Positions 21,619-32,684 are shown, numbered from the stretch's first letter. The stretch is DNA of 42,369 bases from a virus (IMGVR_UViG_3300036828_000686:66333-108701); one strand, 5' to 3'. The notes: a model not told the origin generated them from the letters alone. Translations and numbers: made by a program.

Positions 21619-22635
21619 TTATTCCGGCGAGTCGTCCCACTGGTCGCGCTTGCGGCGCAGCAGCATGGCGGCGGCCTGCGGCCCGAACAGTCCCTTGCGG
21701 GGACCGGCCGGCGCGGAGATGGACGGGCGGTCGGTGCGGATGAACAGCTTCCGCATCTCACCGTCGTTGGCCAGCGCCCTGACCTCATCCACGGTGGCCT
21801 GCGCCCACGACGCCGCGGACTCGATCGCGGCCTGGGTGGCGCGGACCGCGGCGGTGGAGTCGGGGTAGCCGGGCGACAGCACGGGCGCCACGTCGATCAG
21901 CTCAACGCAGTGCAGGGTCCGGATCGGGAAGTTCCGCTCATCCACACCCCACTCGTCGCCACCCGGGGTGACCCGGAACGCGAACGAGCTGTAGCGGATG
22001 TCGCGGCGCTGGACCAGCTCGCGGATGTCGGCACGGGCCTCGGGCGGCTTGACCATGTAGTCCAGGCCGATCCGGTCAGGCTGGAGCCGCAGCGTGTCCG
22101 CCTCGGAGGTGCCGAGCACCATGTTGGAGTCGTGGTTGTAGCGGCACACGATCCCGGTGTTGTCGCTCATGTTCCGCCAGCCGCCCGCACGGACCTCGTC
22201 GAAGCAGTGCGGGGAGACGCGCTCCACGAAACCGCCGAGGTTCTTGGACTCGCGGGGGATGAACACGGTGGCGTAGCCGCCGATCCACTTCCCGTCGCTG
22301 CCCATGTCGCGGAACTCCAGCGGCTTGTCCAGGTCCCGGTACAGCGAGGTGACCCGCAGCTCGCGCAGCTCCGCGTCCATGGTGATGGAGTTCTCGCCCA
22401 CGTGGACGCCGAACTTCTTCGCCGCGGTCTTGATCTTGCTCATCGCCTTCTCACCGAAAGGCGACTGGCTGGCCCGTGCCAGCGCGTTGCGCACATGAGC
22501 GGCGTCATGCACAGGGAAATGACGCAGGCTCCGCGGGACCGTCTTCCCGTTGGAGTCCTTGCTGCCGCCGTCCTCGATGTAGGCGAATGCGCTGTCCGGC
22601 AGGTCATTCTGATCTGCCTGGGTGATAGCCGCCAT
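21619..22635 (-). CDS. HK97-family prohead protease with N-terminal helical extension
   Basis: GGYATVF, YNHD..MVLG, SSFAFRV, LIDVAPV..PGYPDS; N-terminal LPDSAFA...RHFPVHDAAHVRNALAR segment. Confidence 0.9.
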   Translation of the reverse strand: MAAITQADQNDLPDSAFAYIEDGGSKDSNGKTVPRSLRHFPVHDAAHVRNALARASQSPFGEKAMSKIKTAAKKFGVHVGENSITMDAELRELRVTSLYRDLDKPLEFRDMGSDGKWIGGYATVFIPRESKNLGGFVERVSPHCFDEVRAGGWRNMSDNTGIVCRYNHDSNMVLGTSEADTLRLQPDRIGLDYMVKPPEARADIRELVQRRDIRYSSFAFRVTPGGDEWGVDERNFPIRTLHCVELIDVAPVLSPGYPDSTAAVRATQAAIESAASWAQATVDEVRALANDGEMRKLFIRTDRPSISAPAGPRKGLFGPQAAAMLLRRKRDQWDDSPE

Positions 22636-24749
22636 CAGTGAGCCTTCCCGTTTACGGCGGCCAGCTGGCCGGCCATATCGAACTGCGTTGCCCTCTTCTG
22701 AAGGAGGACCATCGCGGCCGGGCCGAACAGAGGCTGCGCCTCCACTTGGCCCTCTTCTGGCGGGGAGGCGGCTCTCTCGCTCGCTGGAAGGTCTGCGAGT
22801 AGGGTATCAAGATCGCCGCAGGTTACTGCCTCTCCTGCCTTGCGATTTCGCTCATCAATTTCCGCCTGCCGCAGCCGGCCTGCCGCACCGGCCTCCGTAA
22901 TGCGCTTCCGGGCCCGCGCCCGGTCCTCATCAGAGGCCCGCATCCCGGCCGGCCCGAAGGTTTCACGTGAAACAGACGGGGCGACCCCATCGGTCATAAT
23001 CGGCAGGCCCTTGAACAGTTCCGCCAGCTGTCCCGTGGTCTCGGCGTTGAAGGCCCGGCTGATCCGCGCCGACGCTTCCTGGTCGCTGAGATGCCCCAGC
23101 CTGGCGTGCTCGCCCAGCATTGTGACCGCGGACTTGCGGTCCGAGGCCGTGGCCTTCGCGCCTGGCGGCCCGAACAGCAGGGCACGCTCGGACGTCAGCA
23201 GCCGGCCCAGGTACTGCTCGGGGGTCACGCCGACCGCGGGCTGGTCGTTGCCGGTATCCGCGGGCTCGCCCGGGTTGCCCACGTCGCCTGGCTCGTGCAT
23301 GGCAGGCGGGTTACTGCCGCTGCCGTTGCTGCTGCTGGCACCCTGGCCCTGCTCGGCTTCCGCCGCGGCACCCAGCGGCGTGCCCTTGAAAGCGGGCGCA
23401 TTGCTCGGCGGCGGCGCGGTCAGGCCCTTGCGCTGCATCTCCTCCAGCAGGGCGGCGATGTGGTCCACTTCCAGCATGACCTGCGGGACCAGTGCCTTCG
23501 GGATGGCCCGGGTCGTGGTCACCATGCGCTGCAGCACCGACAGCGGGATCGCGTCGTCGCCGCCGACGACCTTCGGCAGGTCGTCGTCGGCCCGGATCTC
23601 GTTCTGGGTCCGGGTGCCCATGGTGCGCTGCAGCTCATAGATCTGGTTGCGGGTATGCGGGTCGGTCTTCAGCAGCGCGTCGGTGTCGAACTTCGCGTAC
23701 TGGGTCGCGGGCAGCAGCATGGTGAACAGGTGCTCCCAGCGCGTCAGCCACGGCCGCAGCGTGTTCTGCAGCTCGTCCAGCTGGTCCATGGTCTGGTTGG
23801 TGTAGGTCAGCCCGTCGTTGCGGGTACCGCCGACCCGCTGCGGGCGCACCCCGAAGATCGCCGCGACCTGGGTCGCGTTCAGCTGCATGGCCTGGATGAA
23901 CGTCGCCTCGTTCGGCGGCACGGTCAGCGGCTTGTACTCCCAGTCCCGGCCGTAGACCAGCGGCTGGCGCAGCCGGATCGTGTCGGTGAGCCGCCTGCGG
24001 ATCTCATCGGCCTGGCTCTTGTCCACCTCTTCGGAGATGTTCTGGAACGTGCCCGGGGGGAAACCGCCGTTGGTGAACCAGTCAGCCGAGTACTTGAGGG
24101 TCTCCAGGCCCTGCGACCACAGCATGGAGAACGCGTGGATCGGGCTGATGCCCTCCACCCGGCCAGCCACGCTGAACGCCTTCATGTGGACCAGCTCGCT
24201 CTGCTCCACCAGCCGGCCGTTGTAGTAGATCTTCGCCCGGAACGGGTTCTCCGGCTGCTGCTCATCGTCGGTGACCGACATGCGGTCCGGCGGCAGCCAC
24301 GCGATTCCCGTGGGCAGGCCCTGGCCGTCCGGGCCGGGAATACCGGAACGGTTGGTGATCAGGCCCCAGGCGTTGCCCCACAGCAGCGCCGAGGTGCAGC
24401 CGGTGAACAGCCAGTCATACAGGGTGCCGGAAACCTGCGGGCCGCCGCCCGCGATGGGGCTGCCCAGCAGCATCGAAGAGTAGATGCGCTCTGAGCTACC
24501 ATCCGGTCGCTGTCTGTAAACTTTAATGGGCAAGCTCGCGATGGCGTCGGCTATAAATCTGACCGCCGAGTACACCGCGGCCAGGCCGAGCACGGTCTCC
24601 TGGCCCTGCACCTCACGAGAAGGGTGAACAGGTCAAGGGCCCCCGATGTTGAACTTCCAATACGGGTTAAATTACGCCACGGTTGCCAGGGGACATAAAA
24701 CTCCCCCGATAGTGCGCGTTTCAATATTGATGCGATCAACCAGGGACAT
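22635..24749 (-). CDS. HK97-family portal protein; predicted start ATG 24749 requiring three translational hops (698 aa), with C-terminal extension
   Basis: AVYSAVRFIADAIASLP, LLWGNAW, HMKAFS...GISPI, Q..QL.ATQVAAIFGV.P, L.PWL.RWE; RBS GAGGGGGGTGAGG before ATG 24749; ORF-track start GTG 24611 lacks a spaced RBS. Confidence 0.88.
24630..24701 (-). other. Three candidate translational bypass sites: GTT-TTA-T-GTC (24701-24692), AAT-TT-AAC (24673-24666), CCT-TGA-CCT (24638-24630)
   Basis: Each has synonymous take-off and landing codons flanking TTA or a stop in the A site; 7+5+6=18 nt restores the portal frame. Confidence 0.75.
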
Positions 24750-27310: not shown

Positions 27311-28945
27311 TCAGAAGACGGAGTTGAGGACGTCGTACCCGCGGCCGAACTTGCGTGCCGCCCACACGGCCATTGTGCCCGCGCAGAGTGGCGAGATGTC
27401 CTCGGAGGTGTCACGCCGCGCCCACGCATGCTGGCCGTCACCCACGTCACGCTGCACCGCGGAGGCCACCGCCTTGGTCAGGTCCCCGTGGTTGGAATGC
27501 AGGATCGTCCGTGTGGGCTTGTCGGATTCCCGGGATTCGGGGACACCCAGGCCGCGCAGGAACTGGGCGTGGCCCTGCGCCACCTCGCGCAGCTTGCAGG
27601 TCTGCAGCACGTTCGACAGGGACGTGTCGTTCTCGATCGCGGGGATCAGCTCCGAGCCGGGCCCGACCGGGTCGATGCCGATCACGGCGACCCGCTGCCG
27701 GGACTTCAGCTCGCGGAGCCGCGGCAGAATCCAGTCCACGCCCGCCCGGTGGTCGTCCCAGGTGCCGTCGCTGCCGATCTCCAGCCAGCAGGTCCGTTCC
27801 GGCAGGACACCGTCGTCGCCAGCGGGGCCCTGGTCGAGCAGGCCGGCGATGGCGATGCACGCGGCGCTCTGGTCCGGGGTGATGTCCACCCAGATCGCGA
27901 TCCGCTTCGGCCGCGGCATCTCACCGGGGCCCTTCCAGGCGCACGCATCCCAGTCGTGCCGCGGGATCACCGCGAACGACTGGTCTTCCACCGGCCAGTC
28001 ACCGATGCCGAGGCGCTCGCGGTCGAACCCGGCGGCAGCCATCTTCAGGTGCTCGCGGCTGATGTGCTCCTGGCTGATCCGGATGTTCATCCCGGGGTTC
28101 GCGCGGGCCCACGACTCGGGGCTGCCGCGGCGGTCATGGCCGTGGGTGCAGTACGGCAGCCTGCGGTCCGGGCACAGGTCGGGGCAGAACTCGCATGACC
28201 ATTCGGCAAACATGAGGGTCGGGTCGTCACCCGCGATACCGCGGTTGCGCACCGACGACAGCTGGGTCGAGTCGGGGAAGCCCGCGGAGCCGGTGAACCA
28301 CATCTGCGGGTTGGCCACCGCGGACATGGTCGGCATGGAGGCGTCCACGTCCTCCTGGGCCAGGATCATCGCCTCGTCGTAGTAGACGGCGTCGGCGGTG
28401 AACGACCGGCCGGAGCCGCGGGAGCGGGCCAGGAACCGCAGCCGGGGTGACACGGACTTGCGGACCTGCACGCCGCGGGCACCGAAGATCAGCGTGGGGG
28501 AGGCCCGCAGCTCGATGGCTTCCTCACCGTGGGAGGTGCGGATACCGCGGGGCTTGACCTTGCGCATGAGTTCGTCGTTGGACTCGATGGTGGCCTGCAT
28601 CCGGCGGAAGTGCTCGGAGGCGGCCTTGAACTCGTGCGCGGTGTGGATCTGCAGGGACTCGCGGATGGTGAACAGCCCGGCGAGCTGCCTGGCTTCCAGG
28701 CCCGCATTTTTACCGTTCTGGCGGGGGCAGATCCAGCAGACCTCAAAGGCGGCCCAGTGGCCGTCCTCGCGGGTGCCCATCGAGTTGGCCAGCGCCCACT
28801 GCTGCCACTCGTCGAGGATCAGCCGGTTGTCCCTGGCCAGCTCGACGGCGTCCTCGCCAGCCGCATACGAGCAGGCGTAGGGGACCGACGCCAGGCGGGG
28901 GCGCTGATTGCCGAAAAGCTCCGGCTCGATGGGCTCTGCGGTCAC
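27311..28945 (-). CDS. terL: Terminase large subunit
   Basis: Walker A PRQNGKN, TAHEFK, Walker B VYYDEA, coupling motif TGSAG, W.RANPG, nuclease WVD...DISPL.A. Confidence 0.93.
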   Translation of the reverse strand: MTAEPIEPELFGNQRPRLASVPYACSYAAGEDAVELARDNRLILDEWQQWALANSMGTREDGHWAAFEVCWICPRQNGKNAGLEARQLAGLFTIRESLQIHTAHEFKAASEHFRRMQATIESNDELMRKVKPRGIRTSHGEEAIELRASPTLIFGARGVQVRKSVSPRLRFLARSRGSGRSFTADAVYYDEAMILAQEDVDASMPTMSAVANPQMWFTGSAGFPDSTQLSSVRNRGIAGDDPTLMFAEWSCEFCPDLCPDRRLPYCTHGHDRRGSPESWARANPGMNIRISQEHISREHLKMAAAGFDRERLGIGDWPVEDQSFAVIPRHDWDACAWKGPGEMPRPKRIAIWVDITPDQSAACIAIAGLLDQGPAGDDGVLPERTCWLEIGSDGTWDDHRAGVDWILPRLRELKSRQRVAVIGIDPVGPGSELIPAIENDTSLSNVLQTCKLREVAQGHAQFLRGLGVPESRESDKPTRTILHSNHGDLTKAVASAVQRDVGDGQHAWARRDTSEDISPLCAGTMAVWAARKFGRGYDVLNSVF

Positions 28946-29044: not shown

Positions 29045-29084
29045 AAAAGGCGGGCCCCCCCGGACTAGCCTGCCGGGGGGGCCC
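29045..29084 (-). terminator. Rho-independent terminator
   Basis: 12-bp perfect stem gggcccccccgg/ccgggggggccc followed by TTTT on the minus strand. Confidence 0.8.
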
Positions 29085-29132
29085 TGTGACTTTGACAGTC
29101 CCAAAGACTGTTGGCCCGATGGGCCATGTCAA

Positions 29133-29289
29133 GTATTCCGTCTGTGCTGGCGTGAACTGCCCGTCAGCTGCGATGTCTCACTACCGATGCTCTGCCACTG
29201 AGCTACGGGCCGATGTGGCCGGCCCGGCAGGGATCGAACCCGCGACCTCCGGATAGCGGACGCAACTGCGCGTCACGGTGTACGGAAAC
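29133..29289 (-). ncRNA. Circularly permuted tRNA-like RNA (YrlA/Y-RNA-like topology); core 29165..29268
   Basis: Minus-strand order: T arm gcggg-TTCGATC-cctgc, acceptor strand cgggccg, loop G-CCA-cat, complementary cggcccg, TA, D arm gctc-AGTGGCA-gagc; anticodon stem replaced by a long helix. Confidence 0.8.
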
Positions 29290-29382
29290 AACGAAGAGGC
29301 TGGAGCGATAAGACGATGACGACAATGAGCCCGGGACGAAGACGAAGAAGCTGTGCTCACCGCCCACTCTACTACACGCTAC

Positions 29383-30165
29383 TCAGCGCTCCGCAACTTT
29401 CCTCACGGTCCCGTCCAGCAGGTAGGCGAAGACTGCCGCGCCGGCCTTCCGGTCCGTCACGTCGATGGAGTTGGCCTGCTCCCGGGCGTACTTGACCGCC
29501 TCGGACAGGACAGTGATCCGGTCGAGGATCTTCTCTACCTCCTCAGCCGGCATGGCGCCGGACATCTTGACCGTGGTCCAGTCACCGACCGGCTTGGCGG
29601 TCTCGAACGGCCGGTACTGCCCGTCGAACTTCTCGCCGTCGATCACCTGCGGGGCCTGCAGAACCTGGACCTGCGGCACCCGGACCTCGCGGGCTTTCTT
29701 GGTCGCCTCGGTGCGGTAGATGTTCTTGGTCTTGTCCCACTGCCAGTCCTCGGCCGGGTCGAGCACCGGAAGCCGCTGCACCAGGCCGCGCAGCGCGAGG
29801 AGCTGGTTCTCCAGGAACAGGAGATACCCGGCTGGCACGTCAGGCAGCAGGACAGTGCCGCCGATCTTCACGTCCGCGGACGCATTGGTGTTGGCGGACT
29901 CGCGGGTGAACTTCACATCGAACAGCCGGGCCAGCGCGTCGGTGATAGCAGGGAGGACTTCCTTCTGGACCCGGATCTGGACGCGCTGGGACTCCGGCGG
30001 GAAGGTGTCGCCGTTCTCCTCCCGCGGCTCGTACACGCGGGTCTTGCCGAACAGCGGGGACGCTTCGCCTTCCACGGTGGTCCCGCGGAGGGCGAGCGCT
30101 ACCTTGCGGTCAGCGTCGGCCTGGACGCCCCGCTCGACGGCGAGGATCTGGTGCAGCTTAGTCAT
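29383..30165 (-). CDS. 260-aa protein of unknown function, partly coiled-coil
   Basis: KLHQILAVE.G, RLFDV..T...AN..A.ADV, VP..YLLFLE.QL, LP.LDP, WTTVK.SGA, AVK.ARE.AN resemble an uncharacterised actinobacterial family from memory (not searched). Confidence 0.8.
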   Translation of the reverse strand: MTKLHQILAVERGVQADADRKVALALRGTTVEGEASPLFGKTRVYEPREENGDTFPPESQRVQIRVQKEVLPAITDALARLFDVKFTRESANTNASADVKIGGTVLLPDVPAGYLLFLENQLLALRGLVQRLPVLDPAEDWQWDKTKNIYRTEATKKAREVRVPQVQVLQAPQVIDGEKFDGQYRPFETAKPVGDWTTVKMSGAMPAEEVEKILDRITVLSEAVKYAREQANSIDVTDRKAGAAVFAYLLDGTVRKVAER

Positions 30166-32093: not shown

Positions 32094-32684
32094 TCACGCC
32101 ACACCCGTCACGGGAACTCCCGCGGCTGCGGCTGGCCCGATGCCTTCCGCGGCAAGGGCCTTGGTCAGCATCGAATGGTGGATCATGTCGATCCGGGTGC
32201 GGGCCTCGAACGCCACCGCGCCCGACATGTCCCGCTGCACGGTCAGCTGGTTGTCCTGCAGCTTCTCGCCGCCGTCCGACCAGTTCGTGGACCCGGTGAA
32301 GATGTCCAGGCCGTCAATCACGCCCATCTTCAGGTGCATGATCGCACCCTTCTCCGACCGGCCGATCGCGACCGAGTTCGACGGGTAGGCGTTGGCCGCC
32401 AGGATGGCCTTCTCGTGCACCCCGCCGGCCTGGGAGGAGTCCAGGGTCAGCTGCACGAACACGCCGCCGTCGTTCATCTTGCCCAGCAGCGCCGTGGCCA
32501 GCTCCTCGTCATCGAACCCGTACATGGCCAGCACCACGGACTTGGTCGCGGAGGCGATCAGGTCCACCAGCACGCCGTGCACGTCATCGACAGGGGAGAA
32601 GAAGGTCAGCACGTCACCGGGGTAGCCGGGCGTGAACGCGGTCTGCTTGTACTTGCCGAGCACCGTCAGGTCAGCCAGGGCCAT
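32094..32684 (-). CDS. Phospholipase D-family protein (single HKD, Nuc-like)
   Basis: HLKMGVID (HxKxxxxD), GSTNWS, DNQL. Confidence 0.85.
   Translation of the reverse strand: MALADLTVLGKYKQTAFTPGYPGDVLTFFSPVDDVHGVLVDLIASATKSVVLAMYGFDDEELATALLGKMNDGGVFVQLTLDSSQAGGVHEKAILAANAYPSNSVAIGRSEKGAIMHLKMGVIDGLDIFTGSTNWSDGGEKLQDNQLTVQRDMSGAVAFEARTRIDMIHHSMLTKALAAEGIGPAAAAGVPVTGVA

What the first reader, a model, noticed from the sequence alone, without database searches (positions are those of the whole stretch)
29133..29289. Circularly permuted tRNA-like RNA with no Ro60 gene nearby
Seen (minus strand): variable loop aggtc, T arm gcggg-TTCGATC-cctgc (29243-29227), acceptor 3' strand cgggccg, G+CCA, 3-nt linker cat, perfectly complementary cggcccg, U8-A9, D arm gctc-AGTGGCA-gagc. 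The 3' half precedes the 5' half and the acceptor stem is closed by a loop. There is no anticodon loop: tcgg-tagtg-a-gac-atc-gcagctg pairs with cagttgc-gtc-cgcta-t-ccgg, with further flanking pairings (cgtga/tcacg, gtttccgt/acggaatac). Established: bacterial YrlA Y RNAs have this permuted tRNA-mimic topology and lie beside Ro60/TROVE genes; two-piece tmRNAs are also permuted. No TROVE gene is present here. Inference: a Y-like RNA serving a different protein partner, or an RNase P-processed two-piece RNA exposing a CCA end as a decoy for anticodon nucleases or tRNA-sensing defences.
Basis: partly seen in the sequence, partly recalled or inferred. Interest (0 to 1): 0.85.

Follow-up and report, generated by a model that had tools for sequence, protein, structure and literature searches.

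The report
Phage tRNA-mimic RNA beside DUF7873
The flagged stretch is a real, conserved RNA shaped like a transfer RNA turned inside out; it is a one-headed version of a widespread, undescribed RNA that always follows one unknown protein gene (DUF7873) instead of Ro60, the partner of the only known RNAs of this shape.

Summary
Observation confirmed. On the minus strand, 29161-29277 fold as a circularly permuted tRNA mimic: variable loop, T arm, 7-bp acceptor stem closed by the loop G-CCA-CAU, U8-A9, D arm, and a 19-bp irregular stem where the anticodon arm would be. In eight homologues 96% of pair cells are paired and 16 pairs carry changes on both sides (0 of 500 shuffles reach this).

It resembles YrlA only in topology. 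It scores 38.7 bits against Rfam YrlA (gathering score 69); a tandem-tRNA junction in the same phage scores 33. It lacks the Ro60-site motif GNCGAAN0-1G. The 108.7-kb phage record holds no TROVE gene.

The RNA sits about 25 nt (putative start) to 100 nt (structured core) downstream of a DUF7873 gene. Permuted tRNA-like modules follow DUF7873 in every locus tested where the downstream DNA was held: 80 of 80 actinobacterial chromosomes, and phages of Actinobacteria, Vibrio and cyanobacteria. Three of five complete DUF7873 genomes have no Ro60 at all.

Relatives usually carry two modules. This clade keeps only the second, with NCCA encoded in all nine members. RNase P cleavage and a DUF7873 partnership are inferred, not shown.

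The scan has already found this DUF7873-RNA pair on other DNA (157 notes, at least 121 genomes).

The parts
29383..30165 (-). DUF7873 gene (260 aa), the conserved neighbour and candidate protein partner of the RNA
   Evidence: Pfam PF25283, E 1.4e-75. AF2 model has pLDDT 92.7 and no known fold. A homodimer is predicted.
29366..29381 (-). Conserved promoter-like block AGUAGCGUGUAGUAGAGU ending in a -10-like TAGAGT (29371-29366). It starts right after the DUF7873 stop codon.
   Evidence: The block is conserved in front of the RNA even in relatives where another ORF separates DUF7873 from the RNA. The sigma-70 consensus scan found no promoter, so promoter function is inferred.
29045..29358 (-). 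Whole inferred RNA, about 310 nt, from just after the -10-like box to the U tract
   Evidence: Conservation in nine loci begins and ends at these points. The ends are inferred; no transcript data exist.
29291..29358 (-). Pyrimidine-rich 5' leader with the CGCUCCAG block (29307-29300). It occupies the place of tRNA-like module 1 of two-module relatives.
   Evidence: Alignment A4. The same block lies between modules 1 and 2 in L037 and L033, and in degenerate form (CGCUCUAA) in L018.
29283..29287 (-). 5' strand of the outer helix (UUCCG), pairing with 29136-29140 (CGGAA)
   Evidence: Changes to GCCGC/GCGGC in L029 and L009.
29249..29268 (-). 5' strand of the long irregular stem that replaces the anticodon arm
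   Evidence: Helices 2 and 3: 94-96% paired, 8 pairs with changes on both sides.
29227..29248 (-). Variable loop AGGUC and T arm GCGGG-UUCGAUC-CCUGC
   Evidence: The first T-stem pair occurs as G-C, C-G and A-U.
29206..29226 (-). 7-bp acceptor stem closed by the loop G73-CCA-CAU. Predicted RNase P cut between 29213 and 29212; CCA end at 29216.
   Evidence: 4 of 7 pairs covary. NCCA is kept in 9 of 9 clade members while the linker is 3, 5 or 20 nt. Cleavage is inferred from M. smegmatis YrlA (PMC4201824).
29189..29205 (-). U8-A9 and D arm GCUC-AGUGGCA-GAGC
   Evidence: L024 has GCGC/GCGC, a change on both sides.
29165..29187 (-). 3' strand of the long stem, ending in the family-wide CUGAC
29113..29125 (-). 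Hairpin A (GGCCC-AUC-GGGCC)
   Evidence: The stem sequence differs in almost every relative (GCCU/AGGC, GCGU/ACGC, AUGCA/UGCAU) but still pairs.
29095..29111 (-). Hairpin B (ACAGUC-UUUGG-GACUGU). It lies where L031 has an anticodon-like arm of a complete second permuted tRNA-like module.
   Evidence: L029 has UCGUC/GACGA.
29045..29084 (-). GC-rich terminal hairpin with the conserved loop CAGGCUAGU, followed by GCC and a U tract. Probable terminator, about 100 nt before the large terminase gene.
   Evidence: The loop core GGCUA is kept while the stem covaries. The terminator scan did not call it.

Best explanation
The locus encodes a stable structured non-coding RNA of about 310 nt (about 29358 to 29045, minus strand). 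Its core is a circularly permuted tRNA mimic. It has an intact tRNA elbow (D and T arms with all canonical tertiary partners), a 7-bp acceptor stem closed by a loop, and a long irregular helix in place of the anticodon arm.

It is a one-module variant of a widespread RNA family that is always encoded just downstream of a DUF7873 gene, in phages and in actinobacterial chromosomes. Most relatives carry two tandem modules. This clade has lost module 1 and keeps module 2.

Shown: the structure, its conservation, the gene-RNA linkage, and independence from any Ro60 gene.

Inferred:
1. It is transcribed from its own -10-like box just after the DUF7873 stop codon and ends at the GC hairpin plus U tract.
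2. Host RNase P recognises the elbow and the 7-bp acceptor stem and cuts between 29213 and 29212. The 3-nt linker is then trimmed back to the encoded GCCA. This leaves a two-piece RNA held together by the acceptor stem and the long stem, as published for M. smegmatis YrlA.
3. The RNA acts together with the DUF7873 protein, itself predicted to be a homodimer, as a Ro60-independent ribonucleoprotein that engages tRNA-recognising machinery.

My odds: real RNA of this family 0.9; tRNA-like processing 0.5; DUF7873 physically binds it 0.35.
For: Structure:
- Covariation is strong: 96.4% of cells paired and 16 pairs changed on both sides, reached by 0 of 500 shuffles.
- Hairpins A and B and the terminal hairpin recur with different sequences in relatives.

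Linkage to DUF7873:
- The same RNA follows DUF7873 in L009, L021-L024, L026-L029 and L031.
- A strict scanner finds permuted tRNA-like modules after the gene in 80 of 80 actinobacterial loci, against 3 hits elsewhere in 1.6 Mb on both strands.
- It also finds them within 1 kb downstream of DUF7873 in phages L010, L011, L012, L014, Phendrix, Mimi, Keelan, NiceHouse, cyanophage Pam2 and Vibrio phage K479, and about 1.8 kb downstream in L013.

The window's module is module 2:
- The covariance model R1 lands on the second module in bacterial loci.
- The 7-nt D loop and the G discriminator match module 2 statistics.
- A shared CGCUCCAG lies upstream and a shared CUGAC downstream.

Independence from Ro60:
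- No TROVE in the phage record.
- 3 of 5 complete DUF7873 genomes have no TROVE. The other 2 have it 0.6 and 2.3 Mb away.
- No GNCGAAN0-1G motif, and no CGAA at all in 356 nt.

Processing:
- The acceptor stem is 7 bp, which Chen et al. name as the determinant for RNase P cleavage of M. smegmatis YrlA (PMC4201824).
- NCCA is kept in 9 of 9 clade members while the linker varies between 3, 5 and 20 nt.
- C74 is kept in 76 of 78 bacterial second modules (first four loop letters GCUC, UCUC, UCUU and similar). This matches the 'additional CA' added in M. smegmatis.
- Only 9 of the phage's 31 tRNA genes encode CCA, so the mimic's CCA is not a by-product of the phage's tRNA gene style.

DUF7873 dimer:
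- ipSAE is 0.64 against a best control of 0.00. That mark was reached by 20 of 30 proteins solved as pairs of one chain and by 1 of 23 solved as single chains.
- The three runs share at least 90% of their contacts, and the partner's pLDDT is at least 86.
Against: - No transcript, end-mapping, cleavage or binding datum exists for this RNA.
- The folding energy is not better than shuffles (z -0.86).
- DUF7873 is mildly acidic (median pI 5.96) and has no recognisable RNA-binding fold. Gene-RNA adjacency does not prove physical binding.
- A later check recorded in the scan's notes priced the binding claim at only 22/100 (e1-2703945).
- In two relatives (L011, L014) a Ro60 gene lies next to the DUF7873 module, so some link to Ro60 biology is not excluded.
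- The promoter and terminator consensus scans found nothing.
Confidence: 0.6

Rival explanations
1. It is a true Y RNA (YrlA class) that works with the host's Ro60/Rsr. The phage supplies only the RNA, to redirect the host Rsr-PNPase machine.
For: - It has the YrlA topology and gives the only Rfam match.
- Two related phages have a TROVE gene beside the DUF7873 module.
- 2 of 5 tested actinobacterial genomes carry TROVE, so a host Rsr is possible.
Against: - The motif that Chen et al. tie to Ro60 binding (GNCGAAN0-1G) is absent.
- The score is far below the gathering score and close to that of a tandem-tRNA junction.
- The RNA tracks DUF7873, not TROVE, in every locus. It also occurs in genomes with no TROVE at all.
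- In L011 the Ro60-side elements carry CGAAG-type motifs that the DUF7873-side elements lack in that position.
Confidence: 0.12
2. It is a cis-acting processing or stability element, a form of 'tRNA punctuation'. RNase P would cut a DUF7873-terminase read-through transcript here, or the structure would protect the 3' end of the DUF7873 mRNA. The RNA itself would have no trans function.
For: - It lies on the same strand between DUF7873 and the large terminase gene.
- The structured core starts only about 100 nt after the stop codon.
- tRNA-like structures do serve as RNase P processing signals elsewhere (established knowledge, for example MALAT1/mascRNA).
Against: - About 200 nt of conserved, covarying non-tRNA structure (long stem, hairpins A and B, outer helix) is more than a cleavage signal needs.
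- In bacteria the RNA is followed by unrelated genes in either orientation.
- In relatives, other ORFs are inserted between the gene and the RNA, yet the promoter-like block stays with the RNA.
Confidence: 0.12
3. It is a decoy or sponge for host factors that attack or sense the tRNA acceptor end or elbow, such as CCA-modifying or acceptor-cleaving toxins. It would serve the phage as a counter-defence. DUF7873 would be a helper, or unrelated.
For: - Phage relatives keep the pair inside tRNA gene arrays.
- NCCA is encoded far more often in phage copies than in bacterial copies: 9 of 9 in this clade against 2 of 78 bacterial second modules.
- The elbow and acceptor end are intact while the anticodon loop is missing.
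Against: - The same pair is a conserved single-copy chromosomal locus in at least 560 actinobacterial species genomes, which argues for a cellular function.
- There is no PADLOC match for DUF7873.
- No experiment bears on this.
Confidence: 0.12
4. It is debris: the junction of two decayed tandem tRNA genes, or a phage attP core copied from the 3' half of a host tRNA gene.
For: - Tandem tRNA junctions in this very phage match the YrlA model at 33.1 bits and model R1 at 33.2 bits.
- Chen et al. warn of this artefact.
Against: - The two acceptor strands are perfectly complementary to each other and covary.
- The flanks form a 19-bp covarying stem in place of two anticodon arms.
- The element is conserved with DUF7873 across phyla.
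- An attP core would be held identical to a host gene, not free to covary.
Confidence: 0.02

Closest known systems
YrlA (Y RNA-like A, Rfam RF02553), partner of bacterial and phage Ro60/Rsr (Chen et al. 2014, PMC4201824)
   Same: - Same permuted order: V loop, T arm, loop-closed acceptor stem, D arm.
- The 5' and 3' ends pair in a long stem.
- Conserved tRNA tertiary nucleotides.
- Found in Actinobacteria and their phages.
   Different: - 38.7 bits against a gathering score of 69.
- No GNCGAAN0-1G Ro60-site motif.
- No Ro60 gene in the genome.
- The fixed neighbour is DUF7873.
- About 200 nt of extra conserved structure: leader, outer helix, two hairpins and a terminal hairpin.
M. smegmatis YrlA/YrlB (Chen et al. 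2014, PMC4201824)
   Same: - 7-bp acceptor stem.
- Published RNase P cleavage in the acceptor loop and a CCA 3' end in vivo, which gives a two-piece RNA.
- Two tRNA-like RNAs are made from one precursor, like the two-module relatives of this RNA.
   Different: - There the RNAs are bound by Rsr and encoded upstream of it.
- CA is added after cleavage, whereas here the full CCA is encoded.
- Processing of the window's RNA is only inferred.
Two-piece (circularly permuted) tmRNA genes of alpha-proteobacteria and cyanobacteria
   Same: - The gene order puts the T arm and the CCA-bearing 3' acceptor strand before the 5' acceptor strand.
- An intervening linker is removed.
- A long helix joins the two pieces.
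   Different: - ARAGORN and Rfam find no tmRNA.
- G3-C70 instead of the G3-U70 alanine identity pair.
- A full D arm is present.
- I found no tag reading frame or resume codon.
DUF7873-linked double tRNA-mimic RNA noted earlier by this scan on other genomes. I found it neither in Rfam 15 nor in the searchable papers.
   Same: - Same gene neighbour and same strand.
- Same module-2 features: 7-nt D loop, G or U discriminator, CUGAC after the module, CGCUCCAG before it.
- A terminal hairpin.
   Different: - This clade has one module, not two. Module 1 is replaced by a pyrimidine-rich leader.
- Full GCCA is encoded.
- The locus lies before the terminase gene, 70 kb from the phage's tRNA array.
'Novel tRNA-like molecule' linked to SPFH/Band-7 scaffolds (Burroughs and Aravind 2016, Nucleic Acids Res). 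I recall this from the abstract only. The paper is not held here, so it is unverified.
   Same: The idea of a tRNA-like non-coding RNA that serves a scaffold protein other than Ro60 in RNA-repair contexts.
   Different: - Band_7 is not a consistent neighbour. In this phage it lies 61 kb away.
- Only 1 of 5 other DUF7873 phages has it.
- I could not check whether the two RNAs are the same.

Membership tests
YrlA (Rfam RF02553; Chen et al. 2014) | Permuted tRNA-like domain: V, T, loop-closed acceptor stem and D arms, with tRNA tertiary nucleotides | tested here: met
YrlA (Rfam RF02553; Chen et al. 2014) | Score at or above Rfam's gathering score (69 bits) | tested here: not met
   38.7 bits. A tandem tRNA-Arg junction in the same genome scores 33.1. 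The Ro60-adjacent elements in L011 and L014 also stay below 41 bits, so the threshold is harsh for phage copies.
YrlA (Rfam RF02553; Chen et al. 2014) | GNCGAAN0-1G motif near the 5' end (proposed Ro60 contact) | tested here: not met
   No match, and no CGAA at all in 356 nt. The motif is absent from 7 of 9 clade members and sits at non-homologous places in the other two.
YrlA (Rfam RF02553; Chen et al. 2014) | Encoded within 4 kb of a Ro60/TROVE gene on the same strand | tested here: not met
   No TROVE match in the whole 108.7-kb record, which is 93% complete.
YrlA (Rfam RF02553; Chen et al. 2014) | Bound by Ro60/Rsr | not testable with these tools
   Needs immunoprecipitation. The host is unknown.
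DUF7873-linked tRNA-mimic RNA (the scan's own family, not published as far as I could search) | Lies downstream of a DUF7873 gene on the same strand | tested here: met
   The gene is at 29383-30165 (PF25283, E 1.4e-75) and the RNA starts within 100 nt of it. The linkage holds in 80 of 80 bacterial loci and in all phage loci where the downstream DNA was held.
DUF7873-linked tRNA-mimic RNA (the scan's own family, not published as far as I could search) | Module-2 signature: 7-nt D loop, G or U discriminator followed by C, CUGAC after the module, CGCUCCAG-type block before it | tested here: met
DUF7873-linked tRNA-mimic RNA (the scan's own family, not published as far as I could search) | Two tandem permuted tRNA-like modules in one RNA | tested here: not met
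   One module only. No second T loop lies between the gene and the terminal hairpin. The relative L031 keeps a second, complete module downstream.
Two-piece tmRNA | Detected by ARAGORN or Rfam tmRNA; G3-U70 pair; tag reading frame | tested here: not met
   The acceptor pair 3-70 is G-C.
Functional (permuted) tRNA gene | Anticodon stem-loop with a 7-nt loop | tested here: not met
   The position is taken by a 19-bp stem that continues into the rest of the RNA.

The most novel reading that the evidence does not exclude
DUF7873, as a homodimer, and this tRNA-mimic RNA form a Ro60-independent ribonucleoprotein. It would be found from Streptomyces chromosomes to Vibrio phages and cyanophages. Its RNA would be matured by RNase P into a CCA-ended two-piece molecule that plugs into tRNA-handling machinery. 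The phage clade in this window would carry a minimal one-module form with CCA hard-wired, showing that module 2 alone is sufficient.
Probability: 0.3. Interest if true: 0.85.

Novelty: new variant of a known kind. Interest (0 to 1): 0.7.

Why it matters
Y RNAs of the YrlA type are the only described RNAs with this inside-out tRNA shape, and they are defined by their partnership with Ro60. Here the same architecture is tied to a different, completely uncharacterised protein family. That family is present in hundreds of actinobacterial species and in phages of at least three bacterial phyla, often with no Ro60 in the genome.

If the pair is a ribonucleoprotein, it is a second, independent use of tRNA mimicry by a non-coding RNA. 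It would also give DUF7873 a first functional handle.

The one-module, CCA-encoding phage variant is a natural minimal construct. It shows which parts are dispensable, and it makes the RNase P and CCA questions testable with a roughly 310-nt transcript. Cultured carriers exist for experiments, for example Gordonia phages Phendrix and Keelan, Arthrobacter phage Mimi and Streptomyces strains.

Tried and rejected
- Rfam at gathering thresholds gave no hit in the window. It also gave none on the RNA in three bacterial and two phage loci.
- ARAGORN found no tRNA or tmRNA in the window.
- blastn of the region against GenBank phages gave no match.
- The promoter and terminator consensus scans found nothing.
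- Fold searches for DUF7873 gave no informative match. Foldseek against the PDB was empty. VIA wide gave a best Z of 8.2 on helical hairpins only. AFDB clusters returned only uncharacterised proteins. The ESM Atlas gave nothing above chance.
- NCBIfam and PADLOC have no family for DUF7873.
- Sequencing runs: no RNA holder is listed, only soil DNA runs, one of them probably the source sample.
- phmmer with one phage TROVE protein against ORFs within 10 kb of 80 bacterial DUF7873 loci found nothing. This is a weak test. My second query in that call was the wrong ORF and should be ignored.
- No RtcB and no CCA-adding enzyme family was found in the phage.
- Band_7 as a partner is rejected as a general link.
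- I tested whether the mimic's CCA simply mirrors the way the phage encodes its tRNA genes. It does not: 9 of 31 tRNA genes here encode CCA, and none of 15 in the Mimi locus or of 9 in the L014 locus do.
- Burroughs and Aravind 2016 and the 2020 Annual Review on Ro60 are not held in the library, so they could not be read.
- 'DUF7873' occurs in no searchable paper.
- The protein alignment A2 was too diverse for a genome scan. A narrower one (A6) was used, so the 80 bacterial loci are close relatives of each other and are not an unbiased sample.

Full report
**Where the window comes from.** The window is bases 66333-108701 of a 108.7-kb IMG/VR virus record (68% GC, 93% complete). The phage carries 31 tRNA genes at 19.6-26 kb of the record, far from the finding. 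Around the finding, all on the minus strand, lie a portal gene (22635-24611), the large terminase gene (27311-28945), the flagged interval, and a 260-aa gene (29383-30165) that matches Pfam DUF7873 at E 1.4e-75.

**Observation.**
- Variable loop: 29248-29244.
- T arm: 29243-29227.
- 7-bp acceptor stem: 29226-29220 paired with 29212-29206, closed by G73-CCA-CAU.
- U8-A9, then the D arm: 29203-29189.
- A 4+5+3+7-bp stem where an anticodon arm would be.

The D-loop G18-G19, G15 with C48, the T-loop UUCGA and the G53-C61 pair are all in place, so a tRNA elbow can form. ViennaRNA's minimum-free-energy fold reproduces the architecture. Its energy is not better than shuffles (z -0.86), which is expected in GC-rich DNA.

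**Is it more than chance?** The Rfam YrlA model matches at 38.7 bits. This is well under its gathering score of 69. An important control weakens the match further. The junction of two adjacent tRNA-Arg genes in the same phage matches the whole YrlA model at 33.1 bits. Chen et al. describe exactly this artefact (PMC4201824). The Rfam score therefore proves little.

The proof comes from homologues. Proteins 55-84% identical to the DUF7873 gene were found in metagenomes, and their contigs were fetched. The same RNA lies downstream in all of them. On eight sequences:
- 96.4% of pair cells are paired.
- 16 of 42 pairs carry changes on both sides, against 5.6 +/- 1.5 in shuffles (0 of 500 reach the observed value).
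- Slid controls are 33-45% paired.

Examples of compensatory change include the acceptor stem (CGGGCCG/CGGCCCG against UGGGCCA/UGGCCCA and CGGGGUG/CACCCCG), the D stem (GCUC/GAGC against GCGC/GCGC), the first T-stem pair (G-C, C-G, A-U), and a G-C to C-G flip in the long stem. The linker length changes by non-multiples of three (3, 5, 20 nt), which excludes a coding explanation.

**Full extent.** Conservation across nine loci starts at a block ending in TAGAGT (29371-29366), immediately after the DUF7873 stop codon. It ends at a GC-rich hairpin plus U tract (29084-29045). Between these points lie:
- a pyrimidine-rich leader with a CGCUCCAG block;
- an outer helix (UUCCG/CGGAA, which covaries to GCCGC/GCGGC);
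- the tRNA-like core;
- two small hairpins whose stems differ between relatives but still pair;
- the terminal hairpin, whose loop core GGCUA is conserved while its stem covaries.

The promoter-like block stays with the RNA in relatives where an extra ORF separates it from DUF7873. I therefore infer an RNA of about 310 nt with its own start. The consensus scans did not call a promoter or a terminator, and no RNA run holds the sequence.

**What family is it?** A strict scanner requires a 5-bp T stem, a UUCRANN loop, a 7/7 acceptor hairpin and a D arm. It finds one or two permuted tRNA-like modules right after the DUF7873 gene in every locus where the downstream DNA was held.
- IMG/VR phages L010, L011, L012 and L014, and about 1.8 kb downstream in L013; Gordonia phages Phendrix and Keelan; Arthrobacter phage Mimi.
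- Rhodococcus phage NiceHouse, cyanophage Pam2 and Vibrio phage K479.
- Nocardia and Actinomadura chromosomes.
- 80 of 80 further actinobacterial chromosomal loci, 47 of them with two modules. Only three hits occur elsewhere in 1.6 Mb on both strands.

The 80 loci are close relatives of each other, so this is a strong association but not an unbiased census. No Rfam family covers the RNA at gathering thresholds. 'DUF7873' occurs in no searchable paper. The scan's own notebook shows that the same gene-RNA pair was noted 157 times on at least 121 other genomes. I treated those notes as leads and re-tested the linkage myself.

**This window is a one-module variant.** Three observations say that the window's module corresponds to the second module of the usual two-module RNA.
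1. A covariance model built from the window clade (R1) lands on the second module in bacterial and phage loci. In the phage's own genome it finds only the one true copy at 174 bits; tandem tRNA junctions reach at most 33 bits.
2. The 7-nt D loop (AGUGGCA) and the G discriminator match module-2 statistics. Module 2 has AAAGGAA, AAAGGCA or AAUGGCA and a U or G discriminator. Module 1 has 9-10-nt D loops and an A discriminator.
3. The CGCUCCAG block upstream of the window's module lies between the two modules in L037 and L033, and in degenerate form in L018. CUGAC follows module 2 in these loci.

Module 1 is absent here, and a pyrimidine-rich leader takes its place. In the relative L031 a complete second permuted tRNA-like module lies where the window has only hairpins A and B. 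That module has a T arm, a closed acceptor stem, a D arm and an anticodon-like arm.

**Relation to Ro60.**
- No TROVE domain is found in the phage record.
- Of five complete actinobacterial genomes with the DUF7873-RNA pair, three have no TROVE. The other two have it 0.6 and 2.3 Mb away.
- The motif that Chen et al. link to Ro60 binding, GNCGAAN0-1G, is absent. There is no CGAA in 356 nt.

Two related phages do have a TROVE gene next to the DUF7873 module. In L011 the order is DUF7873, two modules, three small genes, three further permuted tRNA-like elements that each follow a CGAAG-type motif, then Ro60. In L014 the order is Ro60, one element, DUF7873, one module, then tRNAs. So the two systems are separable but sometimes neighbours. 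This hints at related biology.

**Processing.** Chen et al. showed that M. smegmatis YrlA, which has a 7-bp acceptor stem, is cut by RNase P in the acceptor loop. It ends in CCA after addition of CA in vivo, which gives two Rsr-bound pieces (PMC4201824). The window's RNA has the same 7-bp stem.
- All nine members of its clade keep NCCA directly after the stem, while the following linker is CAU, CGA, UCCGA or 20 nt.
- In bacterial second modules the first C after the discriminator is almost invariant, but full CCA is rare (2 of 78). This fits trimming followed by CA addition.
- The phage encodes CCA in only 9 of its own 31 tRNA genes. It has no CCA-adding enzyme or RtcB of its own.

I infer cleavage between 29213 and 29212 and a mature 3' end at 29216. 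This is not shown. Known identity rules (G3-C70, G73, no anticodon) give no reason to expect aminoacylation.

**The protein.** The AF2 model of DUF7873 is confident (pLDDT 92.7). It matches no solved fold and, in AFDB, only uncharacterised proteins. The protein is mildly acidic (median pI 5.96) and has 11 conserved basic positions. Two copies are predicted to form an extensive symmetric dimer:
- The score is 0.64, against a best control of 0.00.
- That mark was reached by 20 of 30 proteins solved as pairs of one chain and by 1 of 23 solved as single chains.
- The runs share at least 90% of their contacts, and the partner's pLDDT is at least 86.

A dimer facing a two-module RNA is an attractive picture, but it is speculation. 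No tool here can test protein-RNA binding.

**Verdict.** The RNA works like a YrlA-type tRNA mimic but fails that family's defining tests. It belongs to an undescribed DUF7873-linked RNA family, as a one-module, CCA-encoding phage variant.

The rivals are less likely, and only the last can be excluded. They are host-Ro60 dependence, a purely cis-acting processing signal, a counter-defence decoy, and tRNA debris or an attP core.

Noticed in passing
window 29052-29084 (minus strand): The terminal GC hairpin keeps its loop (CAGGCUAGU, core GGCUA) across relatives whose stems differ (L029, L009, L031). That is unusual for a plain terminator. It lies about 100 nt upstream of the large terminase gene. 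In L022, L027 and L028 no U tract follows it.
   Followed up: partly
L031:5150-5240: Downstream of the first module, this relative has a complete permuted tRNA-like unit. It has a T arm, a loop-closed acceptor stem, a D arm and an anticodon-like arm (5-bp stem, 7-nt loop UUUAGGA). The unit lies where the window has only two small hairpins.
   Followed up: partly
L011:3800-7400 and L014:700-4000: Two IMG/VR phages place a TROVE (Ro60) gene next to the DUF7873 module. L011 carries five permuted tRNA-like elements in 1.8 kb. The three on the Ro60 side are each preceded by a CGAAG-type motif.
   Followed up: partly
L018:3072-3600 (Gordonia phage Phendrix, MN096369.1): Rfam tmRNA matches at 89 bits inside the phage's tRNA array, in a gap where the record's feature table shows nothing.
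   Followed up: no
L020:6268-6513 (Gordonia phage Keelan gene 126): This annotated 'hypothetical protein' CDS overlaps the two permuted tRNA-like modules that follow DUF7873. It is probably not a real gene.
   Followed up: no
window 32094-32684 (minus strand): A PLD-like nuclease gene (PLDc_2) that weakly resembles the DISARM protein DrmC. In relatives L022, L024, L027 and L028 it sits directly upstream of DUF7873. In the window, three other genes lie in between.
   Followed up: no
G000:C1:34125-34541 (outside the window): The phage encodes a Band_7/SPFH protein (387-aa frame), 61 kb from the RNA. Rhodococcus phage NiceHouse has one about 0.3 kb downstream of its DUF7873-RNA pair. Four other DUF7873 phages have none.
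   Followed up: partly
G000:C1:19655-26075 (outside the window): An array of 31 tRNA genes, all on the minus strand. Only 9 have an encoded CCA. Adjacent genes are sometimes only 1 nt apart, and these junctions mimic YrlA in covariance-model searches.
   Followed up: yes
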